A program made the position numbers and the translations under genes. From a virus, in the IMG/VR virus record IMGVR_UViG_3300050120_000074, positions 1-64,000 of that record: 64,000 nucleotides of DNA, one strand, 5' to 3'. The notes under the pieces were generated by a model. That model did not search any database. It had not been told where the DNA came from and saw nothing but the letters and a program-made list of their open reading frames with translations. This document shows, one piece after another, positions 7,300-59,488 of the stretch (position 1 is the first letter of the stretch; each line of letters opens with the position of its first letter).

Positions 7300-8285
7300 T
7301 CCAGACGGGCGGCGATAGTTGCCGCCTCTTCTCTGAAGTAAATCATAAGGCTCCTGGGATCGCGGTGGCCGATCATCTTGGCCAGTTCCAGAACATCCAG
7401 CTTGCGGGCCAGGCGCGTCAGTGCCGTCGCACGCAGATCGTGGAAGTGCAGGTTGCTCAGCTTGATCCGGTGCTTGGCCTTGCGGAACAGCGCATCAGCT
7501 GACGACTGAGAAACCTTGAATACCTTGTCGCCCCTTCCCCGCATCAGATCCAGAATCTCAATGGCTCGCTTCGACAGCGGCACCTCCCTTCGATCCAGAT
7601 TCTTCGTGGTGCCGTCCAGCAGCTCGATGTAACGCTTTCCCGCATGAACCCGAGCCCATTCCAAGCCGAACAGCTCACCGGCCCGCATAGCCGTCTCCAG
7701 GGCTAGCAGCATCGCCAGCGCAACGTCATGCTGCATCGTCTCCGGCCTACCTCCGAAATAGCCAAGCGCCTCGCAAAGCCGCTGGGTCTCGTCGTCGCTG
7801 ATAATACGGGTGCGCGGGCGCGCCTCGGGCGGCTTGCTGACGTCGTCCATCGGGTTGACCTTCAGCCAGCGCCACTCCTTGCGAGCGATCTCGAACACGG
7901 CTCGAAGCAGGTTCATGTCGCGGCGGACACTGGTGCCCTTCACCTGCTTGAGGCGCTGATCACGCCAATTGGCGATTTCCTCGGGCTGGATGTAGGCGAT
8001 GGGGCGCTCGACGAAGGGAAGCTCGCGCATGAAGCGCTTGAGGCGCACTTGCTCCCAGCGGTAGCCTCGGCGCCCTGGTGTAACGTTGGTGTAAAAACGA
8101 AGGAGCGCGGCGTGCATCGAGTTATTGTCGGCGGCGAAGATCGGTTGGCCGGTTTCGATTTCGGCCTCGCGCTGGTTTGCCCAGAAAATTGCTTCTGCTT
8201 TGGTCCGGAAAGTTTTTGTTGCGCGTATGCCACGCTTGAGGACCTGCGCGCGCCATTGATCGCCGCGCTTAGTGAAGGAAGCCAT
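7296..8285 (-). CDS. int: Tyrosine recombinase / phage integrase
   Basis: MASFTKRGDQWRAQV arm-binding-type N-terminus. C-terminal catalytic region HFHDLRATALTRLA...GHRDPRSLMIYF. Stop overlaps the xis stop convergently. Confidence 0.9.
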   Translation of the reverse strand: MASFTKRGDQWRAQVLKRGIRATKTFRTKAEAIFWANQREAEIETGQPIFAADNNSMHAALLRFYTNVTPGRRGYRWEQVRLKRFMRELPFVERPIAYIQPEEIANWRDQRLKQVKGTSVRRDMNLLRAVFEIARKEWRWLKVNPMDDVSKPPEARPRTRIISDDETQRLCEALGYFGGRPETMQHDVALAMLLALETAMRAGELFGLEWARVHAGKRYIELLDGTTKNLDRREVPLSKRAIEILDLMRGRGDKVFKVSQSSADALFRKAKHRIKLSNLHFHDLRATALTRLARKLDVLELAKMIGHRDPRSLMIYFREEAATIAARLD

Positions 8286-15696: not shown

Positions 15697-17307
15697 TTAC
15701 GTGGTACGCACGATGTTTTGGGTGGAGAAGATTGCGCGTGTCGTCCCATCGTACGCTACCGAATATGTGTTCGTGAAAGCGTCAATCCGATCCGTGTTGC
15801 GCGTGCAGGTGAAAATGAACGAACGACCGCCAAGCTCGTTGGTGATGTTCGTCCAGCCAGCAGTTTCCGCTGCCGTGAGCAAGTTGCCCGCGAACTTGAC
15901 CATTTTCGGAATGGCTACGTTCAGCGGCAGCTGGATCACTTCGTTGCCGTATGCCGCCAACTGATCGTCGATAAACGTGGACATATCAACCACGGATTCC
16001 AGCTTGGTCAGGCCGGTGGTCTTAGCCAGGGTCAGCGAATCGGTGAAGACATAGCTGGACCCAGCCGAGTATTTCTTGAGAATGACCGGATTGACCTTCG
16101 CGTCTGCCAACTTCGACAGCTCGGAATCGGTCGGTGTGTATTGCTGAACTACGCCAGTGCGAGTAATCGGATACGAGCTGCCAGCAATCGGGTAGTTTTT
16201 CGGCGCCAGGCCATTGTCATCCATTTGCGCGTTACGGGCACATGCGTAGCCGACTTTGATGCCCGAGGTGCCGATGTAGTCCTTGCCGCCGTTGACCGGA
16301 TCAGTCGCGATCAGTGGAGCCCACTGAGCCATCGCGTACGTCGTGTCCTGGTTTAGCGTGCCCATCCATGCGATTACTTCAGTCGGCGTGAAACGGCCAG
16401 GTACGTCGAAACGCATCTTCCGGTTCGTCGCAAAACACATAGCGATCATCTGAGAGATGAAAGCCTGATTCTCAGTACCGCCGCTCAGCAGATAGTCCCA
16501 GTCGTACTCGGTATAGCGCAACTGATTCAGAGCGGTCTGATAGTCGCTAGAGATATAGGTAGTTGCACCTTCGGTGAAGTACGACAGGTTCGCGCTGACC
16601 GCCTTCGCATTACCATTTGCGTCTTCGCCGTAGCAATTGGCCGTAGTCGGAACGGAAACGGTAGCGCCGACAACCACCTGCACGGCATCAGTGGCAGCCG
16701 CGATAACGCTCGGGAGGAAATACGAGTTACCGTAATCGTCCTTCGCGTTCTCATCCAGCGAGCCCGTAAAGCTGTAGAGTTGCACGCCGGTAGAGACATC
16801 GAGCAAGCGCAAGCGGACGACATCAGTCGCGATAGCGGTGCCCGTGTTGTCAGTAACTTCAGGGGCATACAACTCCATCGTTACACCATCGTTGAAGCAT
16901 TCCAGGTGCGTGACTTGAAGCATGTACGAGGTTGGGGCCGTGGTAGCGACAGACCATGCCACGGTGCCAGTGGTCAGCACTGCGTACATCGGCGACAGCG
17001 CATACCCGGTAGCCGAAATCAGACGTGCGATGGTGCCAGACTGAGCGCCTAACGAGAAGGTCTCGTAGGCTTGCACATAGGCCTCATTCAGACGATTGAT
17101 CGTCGTCGAGGCTGTCGGGCCAAGGTAGCGCGCGAGCGTGTCGCTGGTGACTTGGAACGCCTTATCAATGCGGCCCCGAGTGAAGCGGCCAGCCAGCGCG
17201 AAAGCTTGGTCGGTGTTGTTCGAAACGAAGCCACCACTGGCATCGTTCGTCGGGTTCATCTGATAGCCAGGCTGGGAGCCAAGGCTACGGGTGAAAGTCG
17301 TGCTCAT
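15697..17307 (-). CDS. Tail sheath protein
   Basis: 536 aa. C-terminal half (GTSGIKVGYACARN...NPVILKKYSAGSSYVFTDSLTLAK...FTCTRNTD) has the sheath-family pattern and size. Confidence 0.7.
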   Translation of the reverse strand: MSTTFTRSLGSQPGYQMNPTNDASGGFVSNNTDQAFALAGRFTRGRIDKAFQVTSDTLARYLGPTASTTINRLNEAYVQAYETFSLGAQSGTIARLISATGYALSPMYAVLTTGTVAWSVATTAPTSYMLQVTHLECFNDGVTMELYAPEVTDNTGTAIATDVVRLRLLDVSTGVQLYSFTGSLDENAKDDYGNSYFLPSVIAAATDAVQVVVGATVSVPTTANCYGEDANGNAKAVSANLSYFTEGATTYISSDYQTALNQLRYTEYDWDYLLSGGTENQAFISQMIAMCFATNRKMRFDVPGRFTPTEVIAWMGTLNQDTTYAMAQWAPLIATDPVNGGKDYIGTSGIKVGYACARNAQMDDNGLAPKNYPIAGSSYPITRTGVVQQYTPTDSELSKLADAKVNPVILKKYSAGSSYVFTDSLTLAKTTGLTKLESVVDMSTFIDDQLAAYGNEVIQLPLNVAIPKMVKFAGNLLTAAETAGWTNITNELGGRSFIFTCTRNTDRIDAFTNTYSVAYDGTTRAIFSTQNIVRTT

Positions 17308-18272: not shown

Positions 18273-19943
18273 TTACGAAGTCGGGAACAGGTTCGAAACG
18301 GTGATCATGGCCGCGCCCAGGGCCGAAGGCTGGTGCGGGTTCACTTGCGTGAAGTTACGGGCATACAGCGCGTTCTGCTCCTTCAGATCGCTGTTGAACG
18401 CCAGGCGCAGGACAGTCAGCGGCACCGCGTCACCGAAGACAATCGGGTTACGCGCAACCTGGGCCGACTTGCCGACGAGCAGCAGAGTGGCGCTGGTGGC
18501 GGTCTCGGTAACGACCTTCGGCGAGTAGTACACCTCATACATGCCGAACAGGCGCCCCAGGCGATAGATGGCTGGGCGAGCGGTCAGGCCGGACGGCACG
18601 AACAGCTCGGCAGGCAGGGATGGCAGCTGGGCGGCGACGTTCATCGGCACGTACAGGTGAGTACCGCCGTGGTCCATGGTGTCATTCGCCATCTGCTGCG
18701 AGCAGATGCCCAGGACGGTCGCGAAGTCCTGCCAGATCATGGCGCGGGTCTTCAGCGTCATCTGGGTGCTGTAGTTGAAGTTGAAGGTCTGCTGGTTGTT
18801 CACGGCGATGGACATCGCCTTGCGCAGAGCCAGGTAGTGACGTTCGTTCGCCGCTTGGTTGCGCATCGCGATCAACGATTCGGCGCCGAGATCAATGCCG
18901 ATTTCGTTGTTGTACTGGGTCTTCGTGTCCCAGGTCGTTGCGACCAGACCGCGCCATGCGCTGGCGTACAGCTTGTACGACTGCACTTCGGTGATCAGGT
19001 TCGGCGTCAGCGTCGGGTTGCCTTCCAGGTCGATGAAGCCTTCGGATTCGACGATGGTGCCGGTCGGCAGTGCAGGCGAGAACGCCAGGGCCAGGGCGCC
19101 GGTCGTGCGGGTGATCGTACCCGAGATGGTGTACGACACACCGGCGAGGGTCAGCGAGCCGGAGATCGGGCTGTTGGTAACCGATGCGGCTACATCGATG
19201 CTTTCCTTGGCAGCGAACAGGCCATTGATGAACACCATGGTACGACCGCGCAACAGTGGCGCAGGCGTAGAGCCGTCAGTTGTGAAGGTCGCGGTGCCGG
19301 TCGCCAGACCAGTAGCCAGGGTGACAGGAATGCGGCGCTCGGACGTCAGGTAGGCGTCACCGGAGTTGATACCGTCCAGCAGTTGGCCATTGGTATAAGC
19401 ACCGTAGGTGGAACCGGCCTGGTGGCTGACGATACCCAGCAGGGATTCGTTGGAGCCGATATCTGCGGGCAGATACACGGCCCACGGAGTGGCCTCGGCG
19501 ATGGCCTGGGTAATAGCCACGACGATGCGGTTTGGCTGCGAGGCGCCTTCGTCCGAGTGGACGGAGGTGCCGATGCCGTCGAGCAGTTCGCGGCCCGGTT
19601 TTGCAGCAGCGATACCTTGTGCAATGGCGGAATCCATGACGTCTGCGGTCGGCAGATGGCCGTGAGCGCTTTCGAATTCTTTCATGCCGCGCAGGACGGA
19701 GTCGAGGATGGTTACGTGCAGCTTTTCATCGACCCCTGCGAACAGAGACTCCAGTCGAGCCGGGATCTTCGTCGCTTCAGAGCTACCGCTTGCCGACACA
19801 CCGTCGAGCAGGTCCTTGTTGAAGTTGTGAGCTTTGGAAGTATCCAGGCTGCCGTTCGTGCCGCGCGAGGCATCGAAGGCATCATAGAAGAAGTCTTCCG
19901 TCTTATTCAGCCCGCTACCGGGGGTGTAGATTGCTTTCGGCAT
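18273..19943 (-). CDS. Putative major capsid protein
   Basis: 556 aa from MPKAIYTPGSG with a GAGAG RBS. Preceded by a terminator and 5-prime UTR, followed by decoration-like genes. Assignment by context only. Confidence 0.45.
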   Translation of the reverse strand: MPKAIYTPGSGLNKTEDFFYDAFDASRGTNGSLDTSKAHNFNKDLLDGVSASGSSEATKIPARLESLFAGVDEKLHVTILDSVLRGMKEFESAHGHLPTADVMDSAIAQGIAAAKPGRELLDGIGTSVHSDEGASQPNRIVVAITQAIAEATPWAVYLPADIGSNESLLGIVSHQAGSTYGAYTNGQLLDGINSGDAYLTSERRIPVTLATGLATGTATFTTDGSTPAPLLRGRTMVFINGLFAAKESIDVAASVTNSPISGSLTLAGVSYTISGTITRTTGALALAFSPALPTGTIVESEGFIDLEGNPTLTPNLITEVQSYKLYASAWRGLVATTWDTKTQYNNEIGIDLGAESLIAMRNQAANERHYLALRKAMSIAVNNQQTFNFNYSTQMTLKTRAMIWQDFATVLGICSQQMANDTMDHGGTHLYVPMNVAAQLPSLPAELFVPSGLTARPAIYRLGRLFGMYEVYYSPKVVTETATSATLLLVGKSAQVARNPIVFGDAVPLTVLRLAFNSDLKEQNALYARNFTQVNPHQPSALGAAMITVSNLFPTS

Positions 19944-20050
19944 TGATCTATCTCTCAAGTGAAGAACGCCCACAGCGGGCCTTGTATCTAGACCCATCCT
20001 AAATGCTTCCGAAGACCTCCCTTAGTTGTCCTTTCCGAAAGTTCGGCAGA

Positions 20051-20081
20051 CAAAAAAGCCAGCACTCGGCTGGCTTGTTTT
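20051..20081 (-). terminator. Intrinsic (bidirectional) terminator upstream of the capsid gene
   Basis: AAGCCAGC-actcg-GCTGGCTT flanked by an A6 run and a T-run. Confidence 0.6.
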
Positions 20082-20098: not shown

Positions 20099-20524
20099 TC
20101 AGGTAGCGCACTCTCCTAGGAGCGCCTTAACAGCCAAGTCGAGCGCAGGATCTTCGCTTCCGACCCACGAACTTTCCTGGACCAGTTCGACGATCTGCTG
20201 GGTCAGCTCGCCCCGCTCAAGGTCAGTGACCGGCCCCTTGAGTCGTTCAACTATCTCCGCGAGCACAGCGCACGGATCGGCACCTTCGACGGTGAAAACC
20301 GAATCCAAGACAGCGGCCTCTGGCCGGATTGGTGACAGCAGACCAAGAACGCTAGCCGCCTCCTTAGCCGCGCGAATACGCTCCATTGGCGGCATGGGGT
20401 TTCCGAGTGCAACCAGAGATTTCCCGAGAGTGCTGGCCAGCCGGATGCGATCCAGCGGTTGAAGGATAGTGCTGATCTGATCGGTCATTGCAGTTTGACT
20501 CATGAAGTAAAAATGATGACCCAT
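20099..20524 (-). CDS. Hypothetical 141-aa protein
   Basis: Start at MGHHFYF has a GGAAAGG RBS. The longer ORF would begin inside a hairpin. Confidence 0.45.
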   Translation of the reverse strand: MGHHFYFMSQTAMTDQISTILQPLDRIRLASTLGKSLVALGNPMPPMERIRAAKEAASVLGLLSPIRPEAAVLDSVFTVEGADPCAVLAEIVERLKGPVTDLERGELTQQIVELVQESSWVGSEDPALDLAVKALLGECAT

Positions 20525-20566
20525 GGTCACCTTTCCGAACGACTGCTCGGCCCAGCTATTTCCCAT

Positions 20567-20589
20567 GAAAAGGCCCACCGAGGTGGGCC
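20567..20589 (-). terminator. Strong hairpin with short T-run (weak terminator or attenuator)
   Basis: GGCCCACC-ga-GGTGGGCC, then TTTT on the minus strand. About 25 nt after the 506-aa gene stop. Confidence 0.35.
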
Positions 20590-20614: not shown

Positions 20615-22135
20615 TTACCCTTGAGCAGCAGCCTTTGAAATCATGAAGTTGGCGTAAGCGACAGAAGCTGCCTCGATAAGCGCGAGCACTTCAGGGTCGG
20701 ACGAATAAGCATCGTTCACTACCTGCAAGCGAGCCTCAAGCCCTTCAGATAGGAAGTCGGCATTGGCGGACAGCAGTCCCTGGAGGAACGCCTTCGCTTC
20801 GGCCAGCGCGGAATCAGAGATAGATGCGCCAGGGTCGATAGCGACTTCGGCGACGATGTCGGCAACAATCTCGGCAGGAATATCAAGGGCGCCCACCACT
20901 TCAGCTACGGGCTCAGCGACCTCGGTCACTACTTCTCCAACTGGTAACGCGGCAGCAGTCAGCGGCTCTGCAACGATCTCGGCGCGCAGGCGCTCGATCT
21001 CAGCGTCGAGATCGGATAGAGCCTGCTCTTTGCCGGACACACCGGTCTTCAGCACGTCAAGCGCGACCAAGCGATCAGCCAGGTCTGCATTGACCCTCAA
21101 GAAGCGGGCGCTGTTGGATTCGGCCAGGCGCATCACACGCTCGGCAATCGTCTCGATTGCCAGGTTGTTTTCCGACTCCGCATCGACCAGGGCCGTGACG
21201 TCCTTCTTGTTGAGCATCCAGCACCATGCCAACAGCATGTCGCTATCGGAGCGACTGGAATCACACAGCCAGACGCTGATGGTCTGGCCGTCGCTCAGCT
21301 CAAAAACGGCGGCGATATTGATGGCGTCGCGCTGCAAGAATGGCTCACTGATCTGCATAGCGAGCACTTGCAAATCACCCGTGGCGTTCAGGGCGTCCTG
21401 AATATTCCGCATGCGCTCAGCCACATCAGCAGGCGCCACAGCCATCGAATCTAACAGTTCGCGGCTGTCGGCGGCCTCAAGAATGTCGGCGAGCGAAACG
21501 CTATCCAGCAGCAGCTGACCCTGGTCTTCGCGGCGCAGGGCATAGAGGATATTGGCGATTCCGGTGCCAATGGGCTTGGCACTCTTGTCCCAGGCGATAT
21601 TTTGCATTGACGTGTTTCCATCGGTAGAGAGTTGACTTGCGCGAAGCGGCCCGGACTTATCGCCCGCTTTCAGCCACTGCTTGAATTGGATCATGGTGCA
21701 TGGCACAAGGCTGCCCAGGCCATACCAGCCAGGACCGAAGGCGCTGAGATATGCGTTGCGCGCGTCGTGCTCGCTGGGAAATCCAAGCATGACCTTCCCT
21801 TCGTCGAATCTGCCATCCTCGAAAACCTGGTTGATAACGAAGACCTGCTGACTTTCCGGCTGTGGCCCAAGGTAGACATCCAGCTCATCGCCGTCAGCGC
21901 CCATGACGCCCTCAAAATACCCGTAGTCGTTGGCTTGAAAATTACTCCAGGCCTTTCCTTGCTGATCAATCCCTGTGCGATAGCTACCGCGCGGATTCTC
22001 GATAGCGATGGGCATGCCCTGGATCGTTGCGCGGCCTTTCTTGTACTTACCACTTTCCGCCTGCGCAGGCGTAGGCTCGCCCGTTTCATATGCGGTCGAG
22101 TGAGATGCCATTTGCTGCCGAATAAAATCGCTCAT
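20615..22135 (-). CDS. Inorganic-pyrophosphatase-fold N-domain fused to a long coiled-coil/Ala-rich protein
   Basis: MPIAIENPRGSYR...ANDYGYFEGVMGADGDELDVYLG...FDEGKVMLGF parallels PPase IEIP..KYE / NYGY..DGDPVDVLV / D.K..AV motifs. Confidence 0.65.
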   Translation of the reverse strand: MSDFIRQQMASHSTAYETGEPTPAQAESGKYKKGRATIQGMPIAIENPRGSYRTGIDQQGKAWSNFQANDYGYFEGVMGADGDELDVYLGPQPESQQVFVINQVFEDGRFDEGKVMLGFPSEHDARNAYLSAFGPGWYGLGSLVPCTMIQFKQWLKAGDKSGPLRASQLSTDGNTSMQNIAWDKSAKPIGTGIANILYALRREDQGQLLLDSVSLADILEAADSRELLDSMAVAPADVAERMRNIQDALNATGDLQVLAMQISEPFLQRDAINIAAVFELSDGQTISVWLCDSSRSDSDMLLAWCWMLNKKDVTALVDAESENNLAIETIAERVMRLAESNSARFLRVNADLADRLVALDVLKTGVSGKEQALSDLDAEIERLRAEIVAEPLTAAALPVGEVVTEVAEPVAEVVGALDIPAEIVADIVAEVAIDPGASISDSALAEAKAFLQGLLSANADFLSEGLEARLQVVNDAYSSDPEVLALIEAASVAYANFMISKAAAQG

Positions 22136-22144: not shown

Positions 22145-22456
22145 CTACCGGCGTTTCGCCGCATTGCTTTTCGCGCTTTCCGACACGCACATAAAGCCGC
22201 CATCGAGCACCCGACCAAGCTCTTCTGCCTCATCCTCCATCCCCTTCATGATGCGACTTATCGTCTCATCGATATCGCGAAGTCGGATGGCGAAAGGGGT
22301 ATTGAATTCGCTGATCAGCTTGAAGTGATCGCCGAGCCGGGAGATCCCGATCAGTGTCAGACGAACAAGCCAGCGCTTCGGTTTCGACAGGTCAGAAGGT
22401 TGCGTATTCCGGTACAGTGTCACCGGGCGTAAGCGACGAAACCGTACAGCAATCAC
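22145..22456 (-). CDS. Small hypothetical protein (GTG start)
   Basis: 103-aa ORF between the GHKL-like and PPase-like genes. Start uncertain. Confidence 0.35.
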   Translation of the reverse strand: MIAVRFRRLRPVTLYRNTQPSDLSKPKRWLVRLTLIGISRLGDHFKLISEFNTPFAIRLRDIDETISRIMKGMEDEAEELGRVLDGGFMCVSESAKSNAAKRR

Positions 22457-22492
22457 GACTTGTCATCCTCGAACATGATGCTAGCCATCGCG

Positions 22493-23611
22493 TCAGAATG
22501 GCACATCATCCGAAGCCCCGTCACATTTTTTGATCTGCTTATAGGGCTCCGATTTCCAGCAAGCTGCCTGTTCGAGAAGTTGCTTGAATCGGGTTTTAGG
22601 CAGCCTGGATAGATATCGCTTGTTCTTTTCAAACCACTCGTCCAGCACTTCCTGCGGGGTCTTCAGCTTCTCCATGTAGATGGTGCGCGAGGAGTAACCG
22701 CCCGCGCTGCTGACGTTCGAGTGGAAGGCCGACGACCCGGTGAACGCCACCGACTTGGCGCCTGCCGCTTTCAAGCGCTTGGCTTCTTCCTCGGAGCGAG
22801 CGATCAGGGCGCCCCCATGCTTTTTCTCGAACAGCTTGAAGCAGGTATCGCGCAGCGCTTGCGGCGCGCCGTAGTGCGAATATTCGAAGTCCGGCACCTC
22901 GGCCTCGGTCTCGCGCGCGATCAGCTCCCATTCCTGTGTCTCGAACCACATGTCCTTGGCCACGAGCTGGATGCTGAAGTTATCGACGGTCTGGCGGTCG
23001 CGTTCGAGATCCATGTATTCCGGCTTGACGCTGTACCCGTACTTGAGCTTCGTGTCGCACACGAACAGGCCGCCGACGTACAGCTTGCCGGGGCGGCTCG
23101 GGAGTATCAAACCCTTCGATGTCTGCTTGGCATCGAGAATCTGTTCCTGCATAAGCAGGCAGCTTTCCTTGATAGCCTGGATGTCGCCGGGGGTAAGGCC
23201 GCTGATCACGAATTGCAGGTCGGCGCCGTCCTCTTCGCCAAGCGTCTCGTCGATCCTCAGACACTCCTCCTCAAAGCTCTCGTGATAGGCGAAGGTCGGC
23301 GTCCAGATCAATGGGCCGTTGTTGCACCTCACGGTATAGCCATCACGCACAAGGACCAGCATAGCGAGCTTGAAGCCTTCGCCGAAGCTTCCAATGGCCT
23401 CGGCCACATCGGCCTTCGAAGTCGCCCCAAGTAGCAGATGGCGAGCCGACAGCGTGATTCCGCGACTGAGGATCGACAGTGACGACTGCGAGAACTGATA
23501 TTCAAAGGGTGCGGCACTATCAATAGCATTCTGGAGCAGTTCGCGAATCGCCTCTTTCATGCCCCAGCGGCGGACATAGGTACGGGCAAGTCCAAGGTCG
23601 TAGCTCTTCAT
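22493..23611 (-). CDS. GHKL (Hsp90/MutL/MORC-type) ATPase-like protein with degenerate G1 box
   Basis: N box IRELLQNAIDS. G2 box AIGSFGEGFKLAMLVLV, as in Hsp90 IGQFGVGFYS. The DxGxG position reads SRGITL. Confidence 0.65.
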   Translation of the reverse strand: MKSYDLGLARTYVRRWGMKEAIRELLQNAIDSAAPFEYQFSQSSLSILSRGITLSARHLLLGATSKADVAEAIGSFGEGFKLAMLVLVRDGYTVRCNNGPLIWTPTFAYHESFEEECLRIDETLGEEDGADLQFVISGLTPGDIQAIKESCLLMQEQILDAKQTSKGLILPSRPGKLYVGGLFVCDTKLKYGYSVKPEYMDLERDRQTVDNFSIQLVAKDMWFETQEWELIARETEAEVPDFEYSHYGAPQALRDTCFKLFEKKHGGALIARSEEEAKRLKAAGAKSVAFTGSSAFHSNVSSAGGYSSRTIYMEKLKTPQEVLDEWFEKNKRYLSRLPKTRFKQLLEQAACWKSEPYKQIKKCDGASDDVPF

Positions 23612-23886
23612 TGAGGGTTACCCTGTTGAATGGAGCGCAACGCTTCCGCGATTTGCAATTCAATTTCAGTCGCCTTGCGGTCGAGCCTGGCTGCCGACTC
23701 AATATCTTCGCGATAGGCCTGGCGGCTGTCGGCGTATTGAGCACTGTTCCGCTCGGACTTGGCCTGCTCCCGAAGGCTAGCTATTTTTGCGCGTGCTTCT
23801 TCGATCTCTACCTGCGTCATGCTTCTTACCCTTTCGGTTGGAATATGCGTGATTTCACGCCGCGTGCATTCGCTCATACTGAGCAC
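23608..23886 (-). CDS. Small coiled-coil protein coupled to the GHKL-like gene (start may be 23820)
   Basis: ATGA overlap with the downstream gene. MTQVEIEEARAKIASLREQAKSE coiled coil. AAGGG RBS before the 23820 start. Confidence 0.45.
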   Translation of the reverse strand: MLSMSECTRREITHIPTERVRSMTQVEIEEARAKIASLREQAKSERNSAQYADSRQAYREDIESAARLDRKATEIELQIAEALRSIQQGNPQ

Positions 23887-23955
23887 TGCTTACAACTATA
23901 CGCTAACAGATTACTAACTATTCGATAAGAATTGCAACCACAAGAGGGGCTGTCC

Positions 23956-24453
23956 GTGGAATTTTTTGTTTCGGTAAGCGGCTATGAGGGTCAGCCGGTA
24001 AGCGTGATCGGCGGCCTTGATGAGGCCACGAATGTGATGGGCATGGTTGGCAAGCTGAAGGATTTCGAAAAAAAGCGCCTCGAAAAAAGGCCGGATATCT
24101 CCATCGTGAGCAATCTCCCGCTAGGGGACCTGGACTTCCTTTTTCGCGAAGAGCATTTGCGCGAGGGGATCACGGCGTACTTGAATCGCAAGCTGCTGAA
24201 TACCATCAATCTAGCGCCAACCATCAAGCTATTTGATCCGGGCTCGGCAATTGAGAAAGATGATATCCGCGAGGGTCGGCAGACCTATAGCATTCTCGCG
24301 ACCATCACGAACGGTCAGATGGCTATCCTGATCGCCTGCGCCTTCTGCGAACAGCAGGCCAAGATCATGAGCAATCAAGTCTTCCTTGACGAGATGAATG
24401 ATCTGTACGAACAGGGCGGCGACAGCGACCTGTACGATATCTATACGATCTAA
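23956..24453 (+). CDS. Lone opposite-strand hypothetical protein (moron-like)
   Basis: GTG with AGAGGGG about 6 nt upstream (track ORF starts at TTG 23932). Only credible plus-strand gene in about 55 kb of minus-strand genes. Visibly lower GC. Confidence 0.55.
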   Translation: MEFFVSVSGYEGQPVSVIGGLDEATNVMGMVGKLKDFEKKRLEKRPDISIVSNLPLGDLDFLFREEHLREGITAYLNRKLLNTINLAPTIKLFDPGSAIEKDDIREGRQTYSILATITNGQMAILIACAFCEQQAKIMSNQVFLDEMNDLYEQGGDSDLYDIYTI

Positions 24454-25604
24454 GGGATCGTGTTGCGCAGTTGATTAGTATCGCCAGGACCGTCGCTACC
24501 GGTGCTCGGATTCGGCATCTCCGAGGCGCCAGCGTCCTTGTGTGGCTGCTCGACCGTATCATCAGTCGTCTGCCCTTCAGCAGGTTTCGGAACCGCGACA
24601 GGATCGACATCGTCCAGAACTTCGTTGGGCTTGTCGTCAGCCACGGTTACCGGCTTCACCATTCCGTTCGTGTCTATCTCGACCTGCAACGGATCGTCAC
24701 TCTCGGGAGATTTAGGCAGATCGACCGTTGATTTTGTGTCATCCACGATAGCGACTTTATCGATCTCTGCACCGGTCAGCCCTGGCGGCGCTTCCGTCGC
24801 ATCCATGATTTCCTTGGCGCCACTTACAGGGCTCTTGTCGCCAACCTCATCTACATCGAGGAAGCCCCCCTCGATCTCCAGAACGACGGCTTGCTCGGTC
24901 GCAACAACCTCAGCATTGGCTGAGGTATCAGCGGGGGCGATGGCGCCATCGGTCGTGATCGTTACCGGATTCGGTTCGTCACTGCCTGGCAGGCGTGGCA
25001 GGCTTACAACTGATTTGACATCATCCTTCTTGACGATAGCCAGGGACTCGTCAGCAGCAGTGGCAGCGGCCAGCGCCTCAGGGGTTGGAGAATCCTGGGT
25101 GATCACCGTCTTGACTTCGTCGAGCACTGGCTCGCCACGCAGCGCCTTGAGTTCGCCAAGGGCAGCTTGGCGTGCAGCGATCTCGCCATCCAGATATTCA
25201 GCGCGGCGCTCAAGGGCTTCGCACATTCCAGGGATCGACGTAGTGATCGACTTAGGCAGTTCGGCCTTGAGACGATCCTGATCCGCCTGGAACGTTTGCT
25301 CATTGGCTTCGGCGGCTTCGGCGATATTGCCGACCAATACTGCCAGGTCGTCGCTCATCTCGACCGGGATCGTATTGCCGTTAAGCAGGACCGCGCAGAG
25401 ATCACCAGATTTCGTAACGCGCAGCGTGACGGTCTGACCGCTGAGTAGCGAAAGCTCAGCCTCTCGAAAAGACACGTTGTTGCTGCGACGGAGCGCGCTC
25501 GCAAACTTTGTTTGGACGACTTGTTGACCGGCGCGGCCCATGATGGATGCTACGCGCTTGATGGCCTTGATCGCATCAGCCTGAGAATTGAAATCGAGTA
25601 GCAT
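24450..25604 (-). CDS. Coiled-coil protein with duplicated acidic C-terminal modules
   Basis: Shares the ELS..GQT(V/I)(T/S) motif and a following coiled coil with the 506-aa protein. Internal duplication KSVVSLPRLPGSDEPNPVTITTDGAIAP / KSTVDLPKSPESDDPLQVEIDTNGMVKP. Confidence 0.55.
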   Translation of the reverse strand: MLLDFNSQADAIKAIKRVASIMGRAGQQVVQTKFASALRRSNNVSFREAELSLLSGQTVTLRVTKSGDLCAVLLNGNTIPVEMSDDLAVLVGNIAEAAEANEQTFQADQDRLKAELPKSITTSIPGMCEALERRAEYLDGEIAARQAALGELKALRGEPVLDEVKTVITQDSPTPEALAAATAADESLAIVKKDDVKSVVSLPRLPGSDEPNPVTITTDGAIAPADTSANAEVVATEQAVVLEIEGGFLDVDEVGDKSPVSGAKEIMDATEAPPGLTGAEIDKVAIVDDTKSTVDLPKSPESDDPLQVEIDTNGMVKPVTVADDKPNEVLDDVDPVAVPKPAEGQTTDDTVEQPHKDAGASEMPNPSTGSDGPGDTNQLRNTIP

Positions 25605-25676
25605 TGGGAAGCACCTTTGATAGCTATGCATTGAGTTTGCATGAGCGCCAGCATGCGCCCGATACGTTATTTCCGG

Positions 25677-40435: not shown

Positions 40436-41272
40436 TTAACGCAGGCGCTCAAAGAAGGCATCAGCTTGGGGGGTAGGGACGGGCTCCTCGCGAGGCCGCT
40501 GGATTCGCGGCAGGTCTACAGTGAGAAAGTCATGCGCGTTATCGAACAGCGCCGAGTTGCCGTGAATCGGCAGGCGCCCCACATCGAGGACGCCGTCGAG
40601 AATTGCTTCAGTCTTGCCAGTTTTCTTCGACAGCATACTGATCAGCTCGGTATTCTCAGCCGTCAGGCTCTCAAGGATCGCCTTCATACTGTCGATTTCC
40701 CTCTGCTTAACGTCCAGCATCTCGTTGACGGTCTCGAACAATGCATCGCGGTCGGCGACCTCGTCGAGGATCGCGATATCTTCGCCGCTCACGCTATCGA
40801 GCACATAACCGCGATTCGTGTTGTAGTTCGGCTCTTTGACCAGATCAAAGCCGAAAAAGTCGGTGGCAAGGTCGCGACCATTAACCGCACGCGCGCGAAT
40901 CGCCGACGAGAACCCATAGGCTTTGCTGCCGTAGACGCGAGCTGCAATACGGCCAGACGAGGTGTCGAGAAATTCGATTTCATGCTCGATATCACCATTA
41001 GGGTGCGCCTTGATCGATGTCGTGCGTATGGCGGGCTCAAGCGAAAACTGTTTGCCGTTGAGAATGCCGCCCTCCGCAGGATCGAGCCCAAACTTCTCGC
41101 GAGGCCAGTGGCCGAAGTAGCCGAACATGTCGCCGCTCTTGACCCGCTCCTGCACGGAGCGCCCGTTGATCACACGCATGACCGAAGGAATATCGAAGCT
41201 GCGATCCTGGCCTCGGAACATCCGGTCGCGCTCAGCAACGTTGAATCTGATCAGGCCGGTGGTCTTACGCAT
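40436..41272 (-). CDS. Putative head maturation protease/scaffold-like protein
   Basis: Immediately follows the portal gene with an 8-nt overlap. C-terminal half is coiled coil. Assignment mainly positional. Confidence 0.35.
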   Translation of the reverse strand: MRKTTGLIRFNVAERDRMFRGQDRSFDIPSVMRVINGRSVQERVKSGDMFGYFGHWPREKFGLDPAEGGILNGKQFSLEPAIRTTSIKAHPNGDIEHEIEFLDTSSGRIAARVYGSKAYGFSSAIRARAVNGRDLATDFFGFDLVKEPNYNTNRGYVLDSVSGEDIAILDEVADRDALFETVNEMLDVKQREIDSMKAILESLTAENTELISMLSKKTGKTEAILDGVLDVGRLPIHGNSALFDNAHDFLTVDLPRIQRPREEPVPTPQADAFFERLR

Positions 41273-42851
41273 TACTCGCTTCCTCTTCATTCACCTGCTT
41301 GGAGACAGGCGACGTACTGAAACTATCGTCACCAAAGCCACCACCCATCATTGACTGGGGCGGCTTCGCCTCCTTGATGCCTCGGGCGATCTTCTTCGCG
41401 TCTTCCTCATCGAAGCCCATCTCGGAAGACAGCAGGCTGACCATGGTGTCCTCTGGCAGCCCGAGATTTCGCATCGAATCCAGAACAGTCATCAGCACTG
41501 CACTGCCATTGATCTTCCGCTCGTGAGTCTCGGTATTCTCAGCTTCCAGGGCGCTGATCGAGCCGTAGAAATTGATCTCGTATGGGCGGTCGCCGTCCTC
41601 CCACACAAATCCCCACTTCGACCATGTGTGTAGGTCAATCAGATAGTGGAAGAATGAGGACAGCGCGGTCCGGATCATTCGGCTGCGCTCGGCTGCCTGA
41701 GCGGATACACGGAAGAAGCCACCATCCCCGAGCCCACCCGACAACTGATCAGAGAAGCCAAGCAGGGCCAAGTCGATGCCGAGTGCGCCCGCCAGCAGCT
41801 TGGCTTGGAGCATCACGTCGTCGATGGTCATGCCGTTGGTTGCCGTGGCGCCTTGGAAGCTAGAGATGCTGGTGACCTGCTTCTGGCCGCTGACCGGGAG
41901 AACGTGATACTGACGCGTCGTGACCGGCTTGTTTTCGCGCACCGCCTTCTCGGCGACTTCCTTCGACTTGGTCAGCATCTTGTTGATGCTGGCCATGAAT
42001 GTCTTGCGCTGCTGGAGCGACATGCCTTCGGTCTCGACAGTGATCAGGTTCTCGTCGATGGTGCCGAGGATGCGCTGGCCTACCAGGCCAAGCAGCGAGG
42101 CGCGAAGACGCTCATATGGCTCCTCGGCCTCGTACAGAAACGATCCGCCGACCATGGCTGGCATGGCTGGAAGATTCTGGATGTCGTCCTCTTCGAGGTG
42201 GTAGCGGTAGGCTTTCTCGATAGCCTTCATCTGCGGAATCCACAGAAGGCGAGGCATTTTCATACGTGCCATCTGGGTTGGCAGCAGGCGCACCTGCTGC
42301 TTCTCACCGCTAGAAACTACATAGCCCACGGTGGCGTTGCCCTTCTCATATGGCTGCACCATGGGCGGGTACACCATCTCGTTGCAGCTGATATCGATCA
42401 GGCCCTCGCCGTCCTTCAGGTACACCCTGGCGTAGGAATCTCCGAAGCCAGCCGCGTTGAACGAAACACCATGCGCCTCGCGATTGAAAATAGGCGCGCA
42501 GTTAAGCTTGAGATCATTCACATACTTCGCGTATTTCTCACTACCAGGCTTCACCTCGATGAAGACGGTATCCCCGGTGGTCTCATGGCCTCCGAGCGCC
42601 TGAGTGACGTGCAAACGCAATGCAGTTGCAATGATGGGGTCTTCCATCATGCGCGCGAACTTCTCATAGATCATTACGCGGGAGCGGGCAACGCGGTCGC
42701 CAGAACCCAGCAGCATCGACACGCTGACCGTGTCATAGCCCATCATCGTATCGGCAGAATCAACCTGGGCAATGGCCCGGTCACCATCCACCAGCGCCTG
42801 CGCCAGTTTCTTGGCCCGCGCCCACATGCCACTTTCAGTCGAGTCAGCCAT
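41265..42851 (-). CDS. Putative portal protein
   Basis: 528 aa. Position downstream of TerL and upstream of the scaffold-like gene. Acidic C-terminus. Confidence 0.55.
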   Translation of the reverse strand: MADSTESGMWARAKKLAQALVDGDRAIAQVDSADTMMGYDTVSVSMLLGSGDRVARSRVMIYEKFARMMEDPIIATALRLHVTQALGGHETTGDTVFIEVKPGSEKYAKYVNDLKLNCAPIFNREAHGVSFNAAGFGDSYARVYLKDGEGLIDISCNEMVYPPMVQPYEKGNATVGYVVSSGEKQQVRLLPTQMARMKMPRLLWIPQMKAIEKAYRYHLEEDDIQNLPAMPAMVGGSFLYEAEEPYERLRASLLGLVGQRILGTIDENLITVETEGMSLQQRKTFMASINKMLTKSKEVAEKAVRENKPVTTRQYHVLPVSGQKQVTSISSFQGATATNGMTIDDVMLQAKLLAGALGIDLALLGFSDQLSGGLGDGGFFRVSAQAAERSRMIRTALSSFFHYLIDLHTWSKWGFVWEDGDRPYEINFYGSISALEAENTETHERKINGSAVLMTVLDSMRNLGLPEDTMVSLLSSEMGFDEEDAKKIARGIKEAKPPQSMMGGGFGDDSFSTSPVSKQVNEEEASNA

Positions 42852-51264: not shown

Positions 51265-51472
51265 GCTTGCGGTCCTCATTGGCCCGGTTACGCTCTGCGC
51301 GGCGGGCTCGCTTTTCTTGAGCAGCTGTGATAGCTGCGGTTTGTGCCTGTTCGCTTGGAGATGAAACATGCTTTCGCTTGGCTTTCTTGGCTGGACCGAA
51401 TTTATCGAGGCTGCTAAAGCCGACCATGCTGCCGAGCGCGGCCAGCACCCCCCAGATACCAGACTTACGCAT
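51257..51472 (-). CDS. Small TM protein with basic tail
   Basis: MRKSGIWGVLAALGSMVGFSSL, then a K/R-rich tail. Confidence 0.35.
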   Translation of the reverse strand: MRKSGIWGVLAALGSMVGFSSLDKFGPAKKAKRKHVSSPSEQAQTAAITAAQEKRARRAERNRANEDRKHD

Positions 51473-58787: not shown

Positions 58788-59488
58788 TAGTCGCGCTCCA
58801 GCTTCTTGGTATCGGCGTACTCCAGGCCAATGGGCGATTCTTTCGAGATCGCATCCAAACCTAGCCGCGTAATGGTATTCGTGGCATAGGCGTTGACCTC
58901 GATCTTCGCCTTCTCCACGGTACGCTCCATGTGCTTATCGAACTGGTCAGCCACAAACTTGGAGCTACTGCCGATCTCGCACTCAATGCGGTTGAGGCGG
59001 CTCAGGATGGCCTTCGTAGTCTTCGCCGGAATCTTGGCATCTCCCAGCTCTGATCGCAGCGCATGGATCTCCTCCAGAGCCTGCTTCATATTTTCGCCAA
59101 GCTCGCCAGCGAACTGCGCAGAGCGATCAACCGGAGCAGGAAGGCCTGGAACCATTTTCCTGTTATGCCGCTGAAGTGTGCATTGCGTGCCGCTGCCGAC
59201 GTTCATCGAGCTGACGAAGGCCGCCCACTGCGCCTCACTCAGTGCGACCTCAATGTACTCTTCATCACCATGCGCCCAGTCTTTCGACAGATGACGACGG
59301 AGGGTGCTATTGCAGATGGATACCGTCACGTAGTGCTGGTGAATGAAGTCCGATCCGTACAGCACGGCATTACCACTTACTCGGCTGGCACGGATCTGCG
59401 CATAGGCCGGGTGCGTGACTGTGATCGAGTCACCGCCAGGCGTGAACGGATCAGGAGTTTCTACCGGGTTTTCGACGAGACGACTCAA
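58787..59488 (-). CDS. Hypothetical protein
   Basis: 233-aa ORF. ATGA coupling to the clamp-like gene. Confidence 0.45.
   Translation of the reverse strand: MSRLVENPVETPDPFTPGGDSITVTHPAYAQIRASRVSGNAVLYGSDFIHQHYVTVSICNSTLRRHLSKDWAHGDEEYIEVALSEAQWAAFVSSMNVGSGTQCTLQRHNRKMVPGLPAPVDRSAQFAGELGENMKQALEEIHALRSELGDAKIPAKTTKAILSRLNRIECEIGSSSKFVADQFDKHMERTVEKAKIEVNAYATNTITRLGLDAISKESPIGLEYADTKKLERD

What the first reader, a model, noticed from the sequence alone, without database searches (positions are those of the whole stretch)
22145..23886. Three-ORF cassette centred on a GHKL ATPase-like protein with a substituted nucleotide-binding aspartate
The 372-aa protein keeps the Bergerat N box (IRELLQNAIDS). 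It also keeps the Hsp90-like G2 box (AIGSFGEGFKLAMLVLV versus IGQFGVGFYSAFIV).

At the DxGxG G1 position the sequence reads S-R-G-I-T-L, so the adenine-contacting Asp is replaced.

It is translationally coupled (ATGA) to an upstream small coiled-coil ORF and is followed by a 103-aa ORF.

GHKL/MORC-type modules occur in bacterial conflict systems. I do not recognise a degenerate one embedded in a late phage operon as a described system.
Basis: partly seen in the sequence, partly recalled or inferred. Interest (0 to 1): 0.65.

Follow-up and report, generated by a model that had tools for sequence, protein, structure and literature searches.

The report
Widespread uncharacterised phage GHKL-type ATPase gene
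The 372-residue protein is a real member of a very large family of phage proteins with the ATP-binding fold of Hsp90, gyrase B and MutL but no known function; the "missing" aspartate is normal for this family, and the two small flanking ORFs are not conserved partners.

Summary
The sequence observation is correct. The three minus-strand ORFs, the ATGA overlap, the N box, the G2 box and Ser at the G1 aspartate position are all present. An AlphaFold2 model (pLDDT 85.7) matches Hsp90, TRAP1, Topo VI-B and GyrB.

The interpretation needs revising in four ways.
- **Known cluster.** The protein belongs to PHROG 6077 (unknown function). The family has more than 3,600 clusters at 50% identity and occurs in over 100 sequenced phages.
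- **Not a decayed site.** At position 49, 260 relatives have S 205, N 38, T 12, Q 3 and D 2. The catalytic Glu24, Mg-binding Asn28, lid Lys66, the G2 glycines and an R-D-R loop are essentially invariant. Sacsin's Hsp90-like domains carry Asn at the same position. A working nucleotide-driven enzyme is therefore more likely than a dead one.
- **No three-ORF cassette.** Both small ORFs match only themselves among 5.8 billion proteins and are absent from 85 homologous loci.
- **Context varies.** Here the gene appears co-transcribed with a DarA-like protein in a distant P1-like phage. Elsewhere it lies among replication and recombination genes.

Function remains unknown. I score interest as modest.

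The parts
22493..23611 (-). 372-aa GHKL (Bergerat-fold) protein, a member of PHROG 6077. Residues about 1-140 form the nucleotide-binding domain. Residues about 150-210 are beta-rich and include the R-D-R loop. Residues about 210-350 are helical.
   Evidence: PHROG 6077 E 4.9e-94. AF2 pLDDT 85.7. Foldseek matches to Hsp90, TRAP1, Topo VI-B and GyrB at E 1e-6 to 1e-3. 344 word-index homologues. 3,645 representative clusters.
23516..23548 (-). N box IRELLQNAIDS (residues 22-32): catalytic Glu24, Mg-binding Asn28 and Asp31.
   Evidence: E24 260/260, N28 260/260, D31 259/260.
23450..23467 (-). G1 position, SRGITL (residues 49-54). Ser49 replaces the adenine-contacting Asp, and the DxGxG glycines are not conserved.
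   Evidence: S 205, N 38, T 12, Q 3 and D 2 of 260 relatives. In the model this residue sits at the end of strand 44-49.
23348..23431 (-). Lid and G2 box: LGATSKA (Gly62, Ser65, Lys66), a short lid of low model confidence, then AIGSFGEGFKLAMLVLV (Gly74, Gly77, Glu78, Gly79, Lys81).
   Evidence: pLDDT is below 50 for residues 65-76.
22994..23005 (-). E-R-D-R loop (residues 203-206). This is a candidate counterpart of the catalytic Arg/Lys loop of Hsp90 (Arg380), sacsin (Arg474), GyrB and MutL. That assignment is an inference.
   Evidence: R204, D205 and R206 are each 259/260. The motif is also conserved in relatives with a canonical Asp. It lies in a loop of lower confidence.
23608..23820 (-). 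Orphan 70-aa helical ORF (92 aa if started at GTG 23886). Its stop overlaps the GHKL start (ATGA).
   Evidence: It matches only itself in the protein database, has no homologue in 85 GHKL loci and has a weak coding score of 0.14.
22145..22456 (-). Orphan 103-aa ORF (GTG start, with GAGGA 9 nt upstream). It ends 9 nt before the DarA-like gene.
   Evidence: It matches only itself, has no homologue in 85 GHKL loci and has a weak coding score of 0.07.
20615..22135 (-). 506-aa InPase + DarA_N protein, of the type found in phage polyvalent and capsid-internal proteins. It is the last gene of the same apparent transcription unit.
   Evidence: Pfam InPase E 7.8e-50 and DarA_N E 7.2e-20. No minus-strand terminator-like site lies between 23935 and 20589.
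20572..20589 (-). Terminator-like hairpin GGCCCACC-TCGG-TGGGCC followed by TTTT, 26 nt after the DarA-like stop.
23891..23923 (-). 33-bp operator- or promoter-like element in the divergent intergenic region upstream of the unit. It contains two 14-bp direct half-sites (TTAnCGnATAGTTn) spaced 22 bp apart.
   Evidence: A second copy lies at 61653-61685, with 0 expected by chance. Half-sites are shown. The element is conserved upstream of the GHKL gene in relatives L005 and L006.
23932..24453 (+). Divergent 173-aa gene (PHROG 4179, unknown function). It is the only neighbour consistently kept next to the GHKL gene in P1-like relatives.
   Evidence: Homologues lie adjacent and divergent in L005, L006, L043 and L056.
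24450..25631 (-). 393-aa Hdf-like DarA_N protein upstream of the block.
   Evidence: Pfam DarA_N E 1.2e-8. PHROG 1620, Hdf-like antirestriction, E 4.3e-24.

Best explanation
**What it is.** The 372-aa ORF is a stand-alone accessory gene from a very large phage family of GHKL (Bergerat-fold) proteins with no known function, PHROG 6077.

**The substituted aspartate.** A small polar residue at the adenine-contacting Asp position is the family's normal, selected state: Ser here, and Ser, Asn, Thr or Gln across the family. The catalytic Glu, the Mg-binding Asn, the lid Lys, the G2 glycines and an invariant R-D-R loop in the following domain are all retained. The same kind of substitution (Asn) occurs in the Hsp90-like domains of sacsin.

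**Most likely mechanism (inferred).** It is a working nucleotide-binding and -hydrolysing module. It would close a short lid over the nucleotide and use an arginine from the R-D-R loop to complete the active site. Like other GHKL proteins, it would couple this cycle to clamping or remodelling of a partner, which could be DNA or protein.

**Context.** In this distant P1-like phage it is apparently transcribed from its own regulated promoter together with a DarA-like protein, next to the capsid gene. In most other phages it lies among early replication and recombination genes. This points to a role early in infection, on phage DNA transactions or against host defence.

**Shown versus inferred.** Fold, family membership, residue conservation, lack of conserved partners and genomic contexts are shown. 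Catalytic activity, ligand, oligomeric state and biological role are inferred.
For: **Family and fold**
- PHROG 6077 at E 4.9e-94 over the full length.
- 3,645 representative clusters, 1,374 of them at E below 1e-30.
- 113 phage records carry a homologue.
- AF2 model pLDDT 85.7. Top PDB matches are Hsp90, TRAP1, Topo VI-B and GyrB.

**Link to canonical GHKL domains**
- The triple-module relative P0232 scores E 6.5e-75 against the family profile.
- P0232 passes Pfam HATPase_c_3 (50.1 bits against a cut-off of 25) and HATPase_c.
- Its DxGxG Asp aligns with Ser49.

**Conservation in 260 relatives**
- E24, N28, G62, G74 and G79 are 260/260.
- D31, E78, R204, D205 and R206 are each 259/260. K66 is 258/260.
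- Position 49 is S 205, N 38, T 12, Q 3 and D 2.

**Sacsin precedent**
- Hsp90 Asp79 corresponds to sacsin Asn160. Sacsin has a shorter lid, a Ser-Lys pair in the lid and a catalytic Arg474 in the next domain (bioRxiv 10.1101/2022.10.18.512535).
- NCBIfam "sacsin N-terminal ATP-binding-like" domain hits at E 2.9e-5, below its cut-off.

**Stand-alone gene**
- Both small ORFs are orphans.
- Upstream small ORFs in other phages are unrelated to each other.

**Contexts**
- VPMS1: between a helicase and DenV on one side and an ssDNA-binding protein and DNA polymerase I on the other.
- PaMx11: between a ligase and an exonuclease.
- About 27 IMG/VR loci: immediately upstream of a 247-aa protein and Sipho_Gp157.
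- Moorella and Exiguobacterium phages: near helicases, dUTPase and ligase.
- P1-like relatives: between Hdf-like and DarA-like genes.
Against: - No biochemical or genetic data exist for any family member that I could find.
- In Hsp90, to my knowledge, replacing this Asp abolishes ATP binding. Loss of ATP binding therefore cannot be excluded from sequence alone.
- The window protein itself reaches no Pfam threshold. A profile of 27 members finds no solved GHKL structure by sequence.
- The C-terminal half has no significant structural match. The best are Hsc82 and the Hsp90 middle domain at E 0.025-0.2. The proposed catalytic-loop role of R-D-R is therefore untested, and I had no access to model coordinates.
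- The genomic contexts are heterogeneous and give no single conserved partner, so the biological role is weakly constrained.
Confidence: 0.6

Rival explanations
1. Pseudoenzyme. Loss of the adenine-binding Asp and the G1 glycines has abolished nucleotide binding. The protein would act as a non-catalytic scaffold or decoy that keeps the GHKL shape.
For: - Ser49 and the absence of DxGxG.
- No Pfam HATPase model reaches its threshold.
- From my own knowledge, the equivalent Asp-to-Asn change in Hsp90 abolishes ATP binding.
Against: - Pseudoenzymes usually lose their catalytic residues. Here the general-base Glu24, the Mg-binding Asn28, Lys66, all the G2 glycines and the R-D-R loop are invariant or nearly so across 260 diverse relatives.
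- Position 49 is restricted to hydrogen-bonding residues (S, N, T, Q) rather than drifting freely.
- Sacsin carries Asn at this site, and the cited analysis argues it is an active ATPase.
Confidence: 0.25
2. Component of a Dar-type, capsid-internal anti-restriction system. The protein would be packaged into the head with the Hdf-like and DarA-like proteins and injected with the DNA, as in phage P1.
For: - The gene lies between an Hdf-like DarA_N gene and an InPase-DarA_N gene, just upstream of the gp23-like capsid gene, and appears co-transcribed with the latter Dar-like gene.
- The same order is kept in four P1-like lineages.
- Distant relatives (P0232, P0238) have three modules plus a C-terminal HExxH motif. 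This resembles the polyvalent injected proteins described in PMC5512222.
Against: - The protein has no DarA_N domain or other known capsid-targeting domain.
- P1 is not among the phage records listed with a homologue.
- In about 80 of 85 loci, and in all the lytic phages examined, the gene is in early or replication regions far from head genes.
- This locus is an accessory-gene hotspot. P1 carries its plasmid replicon there. The closest relative has a 7.5-kb block that includes an S24-peptidase (LexA/CI-type repressor-like) gene between the GHKL and DarA-like genes.
Confidence: 0.15
3. A compact relative of T4 RIIA. Like RIIA, it would be a GHKL-headed protein that protects the phage against prophage-encoded exclusion.
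For: - After the family's own members, the next-best viral structural matches are RIIA proteins (Foldseek E 1e-8 to 1e-6).
- Two phage records annotate homologues as "RIIA lysis inhibitor".
- The lid and G2 stretch is similar: SSSKAESNDFIGGFGLGSK against ATSKADxxxAIGSFGEGYK.
Against: - Profile comparison with T4 RIIA is weak: probability 17%, covering only the lid, the G2 box and following strands.
- T4 RIIA has a canonical DFGPG G1 box, is 725 aa long and has a large additional C-terminal region.
- No RIIB-like partner was identified next to the gene. Flanking genes were annotated in the window but only partly in other loci.
Confidence: 0.1

Closest known systems
PHROG 6077 (phage protein cluster, function unknown). 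Examples: Pseudomonas phage PaMx11 gp71, Ab18 ORF34, Vibrio phage VPMS1 MS_040 ('HATPase'), Luteibacter phage Pluto PLUTO_00440 ('histidine kinase').
   Same: - Full-length homology (E 4.9e-94 to the PHROG profile; 41-45% identity to the Pseudomonas and Luteibacter phage proteins).
- Same length.
- Same Ser at the G1 position.
- Same invariant motifs.
   Different: - No difference in the protein itself.
- The genomic placement differs. Here it lies in a Dar-like block beside the capsid gene of a P1-like phage. There it lies in early or replication regions.
Sacsin Hsp90-like repeat domain (SR1; PDB 5V44-5V47).
   Same: - Bergerat fold.
- ELxQNAxD N box.
- A neutral polar residue (Asn160 in sacsin) in place of the adenine-contacting Asp.
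- No DxGxG glycines.
- A short lid containing Ser-Lys.
- A GxFGxG G2 box.
- A proposed catalytic Arg supplied by the following domain.
   Different: - Sequence relationship is not demonstrated. NCBIfam scores 24.4 bits against a cut-off of 50. Pfam SACS scores at most 14.8 bits against 32.8. hhalign probability is 4.8%.
- Sacsin is a 4,579-aa eukaryotic protein with three such modules plus DnaJ and HEPN domains.
- Ser, not Asn, predominates in the phage family.
Hsp90 / TRAP1 N-terminal and middle domains.
   Same: - Best structural matches, at E 9e-7 to 1e-5, with alignments that run on into the middle domain.
- Catalytic Glu, Mg-binding Asn and G2 glycines are present.
   Different: - Asp79 is replaced.
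- The lid is much shorter.
- The C-terminal half alone gives only non-significant Hsp90 middle-domain matches.
- There is no C-terminal dimerisation domain and no MEEVD motif.
T4 RIIA (N-terminal GHKL domain plus a variable C-terminal region; described in PMC7824862 as a poorly understood counter-defence protein).
   Same: - Phage-encoded GHKL-headed protein of unknown mechanism.
- Structural similarity.
- Similar lid and G2 sequence.
   Different: - RIIA keeps the canonical Asp (DFGPG).
- It is twice as long.
- Profile similarity is weak.
Relatives with a canonical G1 box: the triple-module proteins P0232 and P0238 (about 1,100 aa) and Moorella phage MTATph1 CDS0173 (447 aa).
   Same: - Same module, including the GEG-K G2 box, the Y/W N-terminal motif and the RDR loop.
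- P0232 scores E 6.5e-75 and P0238 E 2.2e-74 against the family profile.
   Different: - They keep DxGxG (DKGTGL, DFGTGI, DDGPGI).
- They carry a C-terminal HExxH...E zincin-like motif that the window protein lacks.

Membership tests
GHKL / Bergerat-fold ATPase superfamily | Bergerat alpha/beta sandwich fold | tested here: met
   AF2 model pLDDT 85.7 and pTM 0.74. Foldseek probability 1.00 to Hsp90, TRAP1, Topo VI-B and GyrB, at E 9e-7 to 1e-3.
GHKL / Bergerat-fold ATPase superfamily | Motif I (N box): catalytic Glu and Mg-binding Asn, ExxxNxxD | tested here: met
   E24, N28 and D31 lie in IRELLQNAIDS. They are 260/260, 260/260 and 259/260 in relatives.
GHKL / Bergerat-fold ATPase superfamily | Motif II (G1 box): DxGxG with the adenine-contacting Asp | tested here: not met
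   The sequence is S49-R-G-I-T-L. Among 260 relatives the position is S 205, N 38, T 12, Q 3 and D 2.
GHKL / Bergerat-fold ATPase superfamily | Motif III (G2 box): GxxGxG | tested here: met
   G74-S-F-G77-E-G79. G74 and G79 are 260/260 and G77 is 255/260.
GHKL / Bergerat-fold ATPase superfamily | Curated profile score (Pfam HATPase_c or HATPase_c_3) | tested here: not met
   The window protein has no hit. Faint sub-threshold hits occur in 6 of 27 homologues. The link is transitive only, through P0232, which scores 50.1 bits against a cut-off of 25.
GHKL / Bergerat-fold ATPase superfamily | ATP binding and hydrolysis | not testable with these tools
   Needs biochemistry.
Sacsin-type Hsp90-like domain | Neutral polar residue in place of Hsp90 Asp79, a short lid with Ser-Lys, and GxFGxG | tested here: met
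   S49 (Asn in 38/260), T64-S65-K66 and GSFGEG. Sacsin residues are taken from bioRxiv 10.1101/2022.10.18.512535 and the 5V44 sequence.
Sacsin-type Hsp90-like domain | Curated profile score (NCBIfam NF047352; Pfam PF25794 SACS) | tested here: not met
   NF047352 scores 24.4 bits against a cut-off of 50. SACS scores at most 14.8 bits against 32.8 among close family members (A1), in 4 of 27 of them.
Sacsin-type Hsp90-like domain | Direct profile similarity to human sacsin SR1 | tested here: inconclusive
   hhalign gives E 0.0084 and probability 4.8%. The alignment is colinear from the N box to the G2 box but poorly aligned around G1.
T4 RIIA family | About 700-aa protein with an N-terminal GHKL domain that has a canonical G1 box, plus a large C-terminal region | tested here: not met
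   The window protein is 372 aa with Ser49. T4 RIIA is 725 aa with DFGPG. hhalign probability is 17%.
P1 Dar (defence against restriction) system | DarA_N domain, or homology to DarA, Hdf, DdrA, DdrB, DarB or Ulx | tested here: not met
   The GHKL protein has no Pfam hit. Only the flanking genes carry DarA_N. P1 is not among the phage records listed with a homologue.
P1 Dar (defence against restriction) system | Packaged in the capsid and ejected with the DNA | not testable with these tools
   Needs virion proteomics.
MORC / MutL / GyrB-type GHKL plus S5-fold transducer | S5-fold second domain supplying a conserved Lys to the active site | tested here: inconclusive
   A model of the C-terminal half (pLDDT 86.9) has no significant PDB match. 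MORC2 and MORC3 appear only at E above 1.

The most novel reading that the evidence does not exclude
The Ser/Asn/Thr/Gln-for-Asp change marks a GHKL clade that has switched ligand. It might bind a non-adenine nucleotide or a nucleotide-derived signalling molecule. In P1-like phages it would work together with the DarA/Hdf capsid-internal proteins, either delivered with the DNA or made immediately after entry. It would then protect incoming phage DNA or disable a host defence. That would make it a new enzymatic class of phage counter-defence factor, present in thousands of phages.
Probability: 0.12. Interest if true: 0.7.

Novelty: new variant of a known kind. Interest (0 to 1): 0.35.

Why it matters
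- **Scale.** This is one of the larger phage protein families still without a function. It has more than 3,600 clusters at 50% identity.
- **Tractable hosts.** It occurs in cultured phages of Pseudomonas aeruginosa, Vibrio, Klebsiella, E. coli, Pectobacterium and others.
- **Testable biochemistry.** It has a recognisable enzymatic fold and a clear peculiarity: Ser or Asn where every classical GHKL enzyme has the adenine-binding Asp.
- **Wider relevance.** Learning what it binds and does would add a function to many phage annotations. It could also inform how sacsin-type modules handle nucleotides.
- **For this window.** The practical result is corrective. There is no three-gene system here. 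There is one conserved accessory gene flanked by two lineage-specific ORFs.

Tried and rejected
- **Sequence search against solved structures.** The single protein and a 27-sequence profile both found no GHKL chain.
- **Defence and naming libraries.** PADLOC gave only a 10.5-bit TmtA hit. NCBIfam gave only the sub-threshold sacsin domain.
- **Conserved partner genes.** I clustered neighbours in 85 loci. Only clade-specific neighbours appeared: Sipho_Gp157, a 247-aa protein and small ORFs. Nothing was universal.
- **A recurrent small upstream ORF.** Small ORFs do precede the gene in PaMx11, phiXF1 and Pluto, but they are unrelated to each other and to the 70-aa ORF here.
- **Fold of the C-terminal half.** I modelled it separately and found no significant match.
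- **Shared late-promoter motif with P1.** The P1 -22 boxes (AAGTGACTT and AAATGACTA) are not present upstream of this unit. A different repeated element was found instead.
- **Identity of the second gene carrying that element.** The 289-aa ORF at 60726-61595 has no Pfam or phage match.
- **Megablast of 24 kb of the window against phages.** No match.
- **RIIA membership and sacsin membership.** Both were considered, and neither is established.
Full report
**1. What is in the sequence**

- 23608-23886, 92 aa from GTG;
- 22493-23611, 372 aa from ATG;
- 22145-22456, 103 aa from GTG.

The plus strand reads TCAT at 23608-23611, so the stop of the upstream ORF overlaps the ATG of the 372-aa ORF as ATGA. 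The quoted peptides are at residues 22-32 (IRELLQNAIDS), 49-54 (SRGITL) and 72-88 (AIGSFGEGFKLAMLVLV).

The upstream ORF more probably starts at ATG 23820, giving 70 aa:
- That codon is preceded by GAAAGGG.
- The gene call on an identical metagenomic contig is 70 aa.
- The GTG at 23886 lies inside a repeated regulatory-looking element and has no ribosome-binding site.

**2. The fold**

No Pfam model reaches threshold on the 372-aa protein. Neither the protein nor a 27-sequence profile finds a solved GHKL structure by sequence.

An AlphaFold2 model built on 27 homologues is confident (mean pLDDT 85.7, pTM 0.74). The only low-confidence stretches are residues 65-76, which form the lid, and the C-terminal tail. 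Foldseek against the PDB returns Hsc82, TRAP1, Hsp90 N-domains, Topo VI-B and GyrB. E-values run from 9e-7 to about 1e-3, at probability 1.00. The secondary-structure order is:
- the N-box helix (residues 18-31);
- two strands, the second ending at Ser49;
- a short helix and the disordered lid;
- the post-G2 helix, followed by a four-stranded sheet.

This is the Bergerat arrangement.

Homology to canonical GHKL domains can also be traced by sequence. The 1,099-aa relative P0232 matches the family profile at E 6.5e-75. It passes Pfam HATPase_c_3 (50.1 bits, cut-off 25) and HATPase_c. It contains three tandem copies of the module with intact DKGTGL, DFGTGI and DKGLGI boxes. Their Asp aligns with Ser49.

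**3. The substitution is the family norm**

The protein matches PHROG 6077 (unknown function) end to end at E 4.9e-94.
- The word-index search found 344 homologues.
- The exhaustive profile search found 3,645 representative clusters at E up to 1e-3, and 1,374 at E up to 1e-30.
- tblastn finds homologues in 113 phage records. Hosts include Vibrio, Pseudomonas, Pectobacterium, Escherichia, Erwinia, Klebsiella and Cronobacter, with distant hits in Moorella and Exiguobacterium phages. Annotations vary: hypothetical, "HATPase", "histidine kinase-like ATPase", "RIIA lysis inhibitor" or "sacsin-beta sandwich".

I aligned 260 relatives to the family HMM.

| Residue(s) | Conservation |
|---|---|
| Glu24, Asn28, Gly62, Gly74, Gly79, Trp16, Tyr193 | 260/260 |
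| Asp31, Glu78, Arg204, Asp205, Arg206 | 259/260 each |
| Lys66 | 258/260 |
| Position 49 | Ser 205, Asn 38, Thr 12, Gln 3, Asp 2 |

The two Asp cases are the triple-module proteins. The general base, the metal ligand, the phosphate-binding glycines and a basic loop in the next domain are thus frozen. The base-contacting position is held to small hydrogen-bonding residues. This is the signature of a site under selection, not of decay.

**4. Precedent in sacsin**

A structural analysis of sacsin's Hsp90-like domains equates Hsp90 Asp79 with sacsin Asn160 and Gly83 with Val163. It notes a lid about 12 residues shorter and a Ser179-Lys180 pair in the lid. It assigns a catalytic Arg474 to the following domain and argues that sacsin is an active ATPase (bioRxiv 10.1101/2022.10.18.512535). 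The 5V44 sequence shows YVYNNAVF...[20 protein letters not shown]. The phage family reads I-T-S-R-x-x-L...LGATSKADxxxAIGSFGEGYK.

The resemblance in pattern is close, but membership is not shown:
- NCBIfam's sacsin N-terminal ATP-binding-like domain scores 24.4 bits against a cut-off of 50.
- Pfam SACS scores at most 14.8 bits against 32.8 in close family members.
- hhalign to 5V44 gives a probability of 4.8%.

**5. No three-ORF cassette**

The 70-aa and 103-aa ORFs each match only themselves among 5.8 billion proteins. tblastn finds neither in any of 85 loci that encode a GHKL homologue, apart from the identical contig. The closest homologue is 56% identical and sits on 87-95 kb P1-like contigs. 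It has a 187-bp untranslated leader in place of the 70-aa ORF. An opposite-strand gene replaces the 103-aa ORF.

Small ORFs do precede the gene in PaMx11, phiXF1 and Pluto. They are mutually unrelated, and one is a membrane peptide.

A codon-usage score puts both small ORFs in their best frame, but weakly:

| ORF | Coding score |
|---|---|
| 70-aa ORF | 0.14 |
| 103-aa ORF | 0.07 |
| Established genes | 0.36-0.50 |
| Divergent 173-aa gene | 0.44 |

The 173-aa gene was not in the reference set used to build the score. The two small ORFs may be translated, but they are lineage-specific.

**6. The transcription unit and the phage**

The window is a distant P1-like myophage. The evidence is as follows:
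- The 574-aa ORF at 18273-19997 matches P1 gp23, the major capsid protein, and at 45% identity the capsid protein of Xanthomonas phage Rb1.
- It is followed, as in P1, by sheath, gp21-like and PmgG-like genes.
- Baseplate, tail fibre, portal and terminase genes lie upstream.

The block upstream of the capsid gene holds these genes:
- an Hdf-like DarA_N protein (24450-25631);
- a divergent 173-aa gene;
- the 70-aa ORF, the GHKL gene and the 103-aa ORF;
- an InPase + DarA_N protein (20615-22135).

In P1, DarA and Hdf line the inside of the capsid and are needed to package the other Dar proteins (PMC12810830). InPase and DarA_N are domains of phage polyvalent proteins that are predicted to be packaged in the virion (PMC5512222).

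No minus-strand terminator-like site lies between 23935 and a strong hairpin at 20572-20589. The GHKL gene therefore appears to be co-transcribed with the DarA-like gene.

The divergent intergenic region carries a 33-bp element with two 14-bp half-sites 22 bp apart. It recurs once more in the window, at 61653-61685, with none expected by chance. It is also conserved upstream of the GHKL gene in the closest relative. This looks like a regulator-controlled promoter. It differs from the P1 late-promoter boxes, so "late operon" is not established even here.

**7. Context elsewhere**

The order Hdf-like, divergent 173-aa gene, GHKL, DarA-like recurs in four P1-like lineages: the window, L005/L006, L043 and L056. 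This position is an accessory hotspot:
- P1 carries repA/parAB there.
- L005 has a 7.5-kb block that includes an S24-peptidase gene between the GHKL and DarA-like genes.

In the remaining roughly 80 loci and in cultured phages, the gene lies in early or replication regions:
- Pluto: among small early genes.
- PaMx11: between a ligase and an exonuclease, downstream of the primase.
- VPMS1: between a helicase and DenV on one side and an Enc34-like ssDNA-binding protein and DNA polymerase I on the other.
- About 27 IMG/VR loci: immediately upstream of a 247-aa protein and Sipho_Gp157.
- Moorella and Exiguobacterium phages: near helicases, dUTPase, ligase and dNMP-kinase-type genes.

The last two homologues, and the triple-module proteins, also carry a C-terminal HExxH...E motif of zincin type. 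This is the peptidase theme of polyvalent proteins (PMC5512222).

**8. Mechanism**

The best-supported reading is an active, sacsin-like or Hsp90-like nucleotide-driven module, with these proposed elements:
- Glu24 activates water and Asn28 holds Mg.
- The G2 glycines and Lys66 bind the phosphates under a short lid.
- An Arg of the invariant R-D-R loop (203-206) completes the site, by analogy with Hsp90 Arg380 and sacsin Arg474.

The last point is an inference. The loop has lower model confidence. The C-terminal half modelled alone (pLDDT 86.9) has only non-significant matches to Hsc82 and the Hsp90 middle domain, at E 0.025-0.2.

What Ser49 does to base recognition cannot be decided computationally. 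The biological role is constrained only by context, which suggests an early-acting accessory function linked to DNA transactions or counter-defence.

The rivals are a non-catalytic scaffold, a packaged Dar component and a compact RIIA. RIIA is structurally the next-closest viral family. However, it keeps a canonical DFGPG box, is 725 aa long and gives only 17% hhalign probability.

**9. Verdict**

The cassette is not a system. The degenerate site is a conserved family trait with a sacsin precedent. The remaining interest is that a very widespread phage GHKL family with an unusual nucleotide pocket has no known function. Literature searches found no characterisation. I rate it as a new variant of a known kind, with modest interest.

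Noticed in passing
window 23891-23923 (-) and 61653-61685 (-); L005 about 7840-7880: A 33-bp element, GAATAGTTAGTAATCTGTTAGCGTATAGTTGTA, with two 14-bp direct half-sites 22 bp apart. It occurs upstream of the GHKL unit and again upstream of an unannotatable 289-aa ORF (60726-61595), with 0 expected by chance. It is conserved upstream of the GHKL gene in the closest relative. It is probably an operator or promoter for a phage regulator.
   Followed up: partly
window 11500-47600: The window is a distant P1-like myophage. It has a gp23-like capsid protein (18273-19997), sheath (15697-17307), PmgG-like and PmgB-like proteins, baseplate, tail fibres, portal (41265-42851) and terminase (46066-47589). 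The Dar/GHKL block sits where P1 carries its repA/parAB plasmid replicon. The nearest cultured relative by capsid protein is Xanthomonas phage Rb1, at 45% identity.
   Followed up: partly
P0232 and P0238 (L093 817-4116); L094 3486-4826; L095 3474-4787: Distant relatives keep a canonical or near-canonical G1 box and add a C-terminal HExxH...E zincin-like motif. P0232 and P0238 have three tandem GHKL modules before it, and P0232 lies next to DUF932 and HU genes. Their architecture resembles that of polyvalent proteins. The Moorella phage homologue has Glu in place of the Mg-binding Asn.
   Followed up: partly
window 23932-24453 (+): A divergent 173-aa gene (PHROG 4179, unknown function) is the only neighbour kept next to the GHKL gene across P1-like relatives (64% identical in L005/L006, about 30% in L043/L056). 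It could be a functional partner or the regulator acting on the shared intergenic element.
   Followed up: no
window 24450-25631 (-) and 20615-22135 (-): Two DarA_N-domain proteins flank the block. One is Hdf-like, with a long acidic, Ala/Pro/Thr/Val-rich C-terminal tail. The other is an InPase + DarA_N fusion, which is 1,111 aa long in the relative L005. This suggests a P1-style capsid-internal anti-restriction set in a non-enterobacterial phage.
   Followed up: partly
window 51465-52466 (-) and 59485-60213 (-): Weak, sub-threshold Pfam hits to the ParB HTH domain and to the DNA polymerase III beta central domain. The ParB hit would fit a P1-like plasmid-prophage lifestyle. Most ORFs between 50 and 64 kb have no family match at all.
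   Followed up: no
homologues P0030, P0080, P0090 and others: Several homologues carry a precomputed weak hit to Pfam PF25856 (MPN635_N, named after a Mycoplasma protein). This hit did not reappear in my own Pfam scans at E up to 1.
   Followed up: partly
window 20099-20578 (-): A 159-aa ORF lies between the DarA-like gene's terminator and the capsid gene. It has no family match, and terminator-like hairpins bracket it at 20572-20589 and 20056-20076.
   Followed up: no
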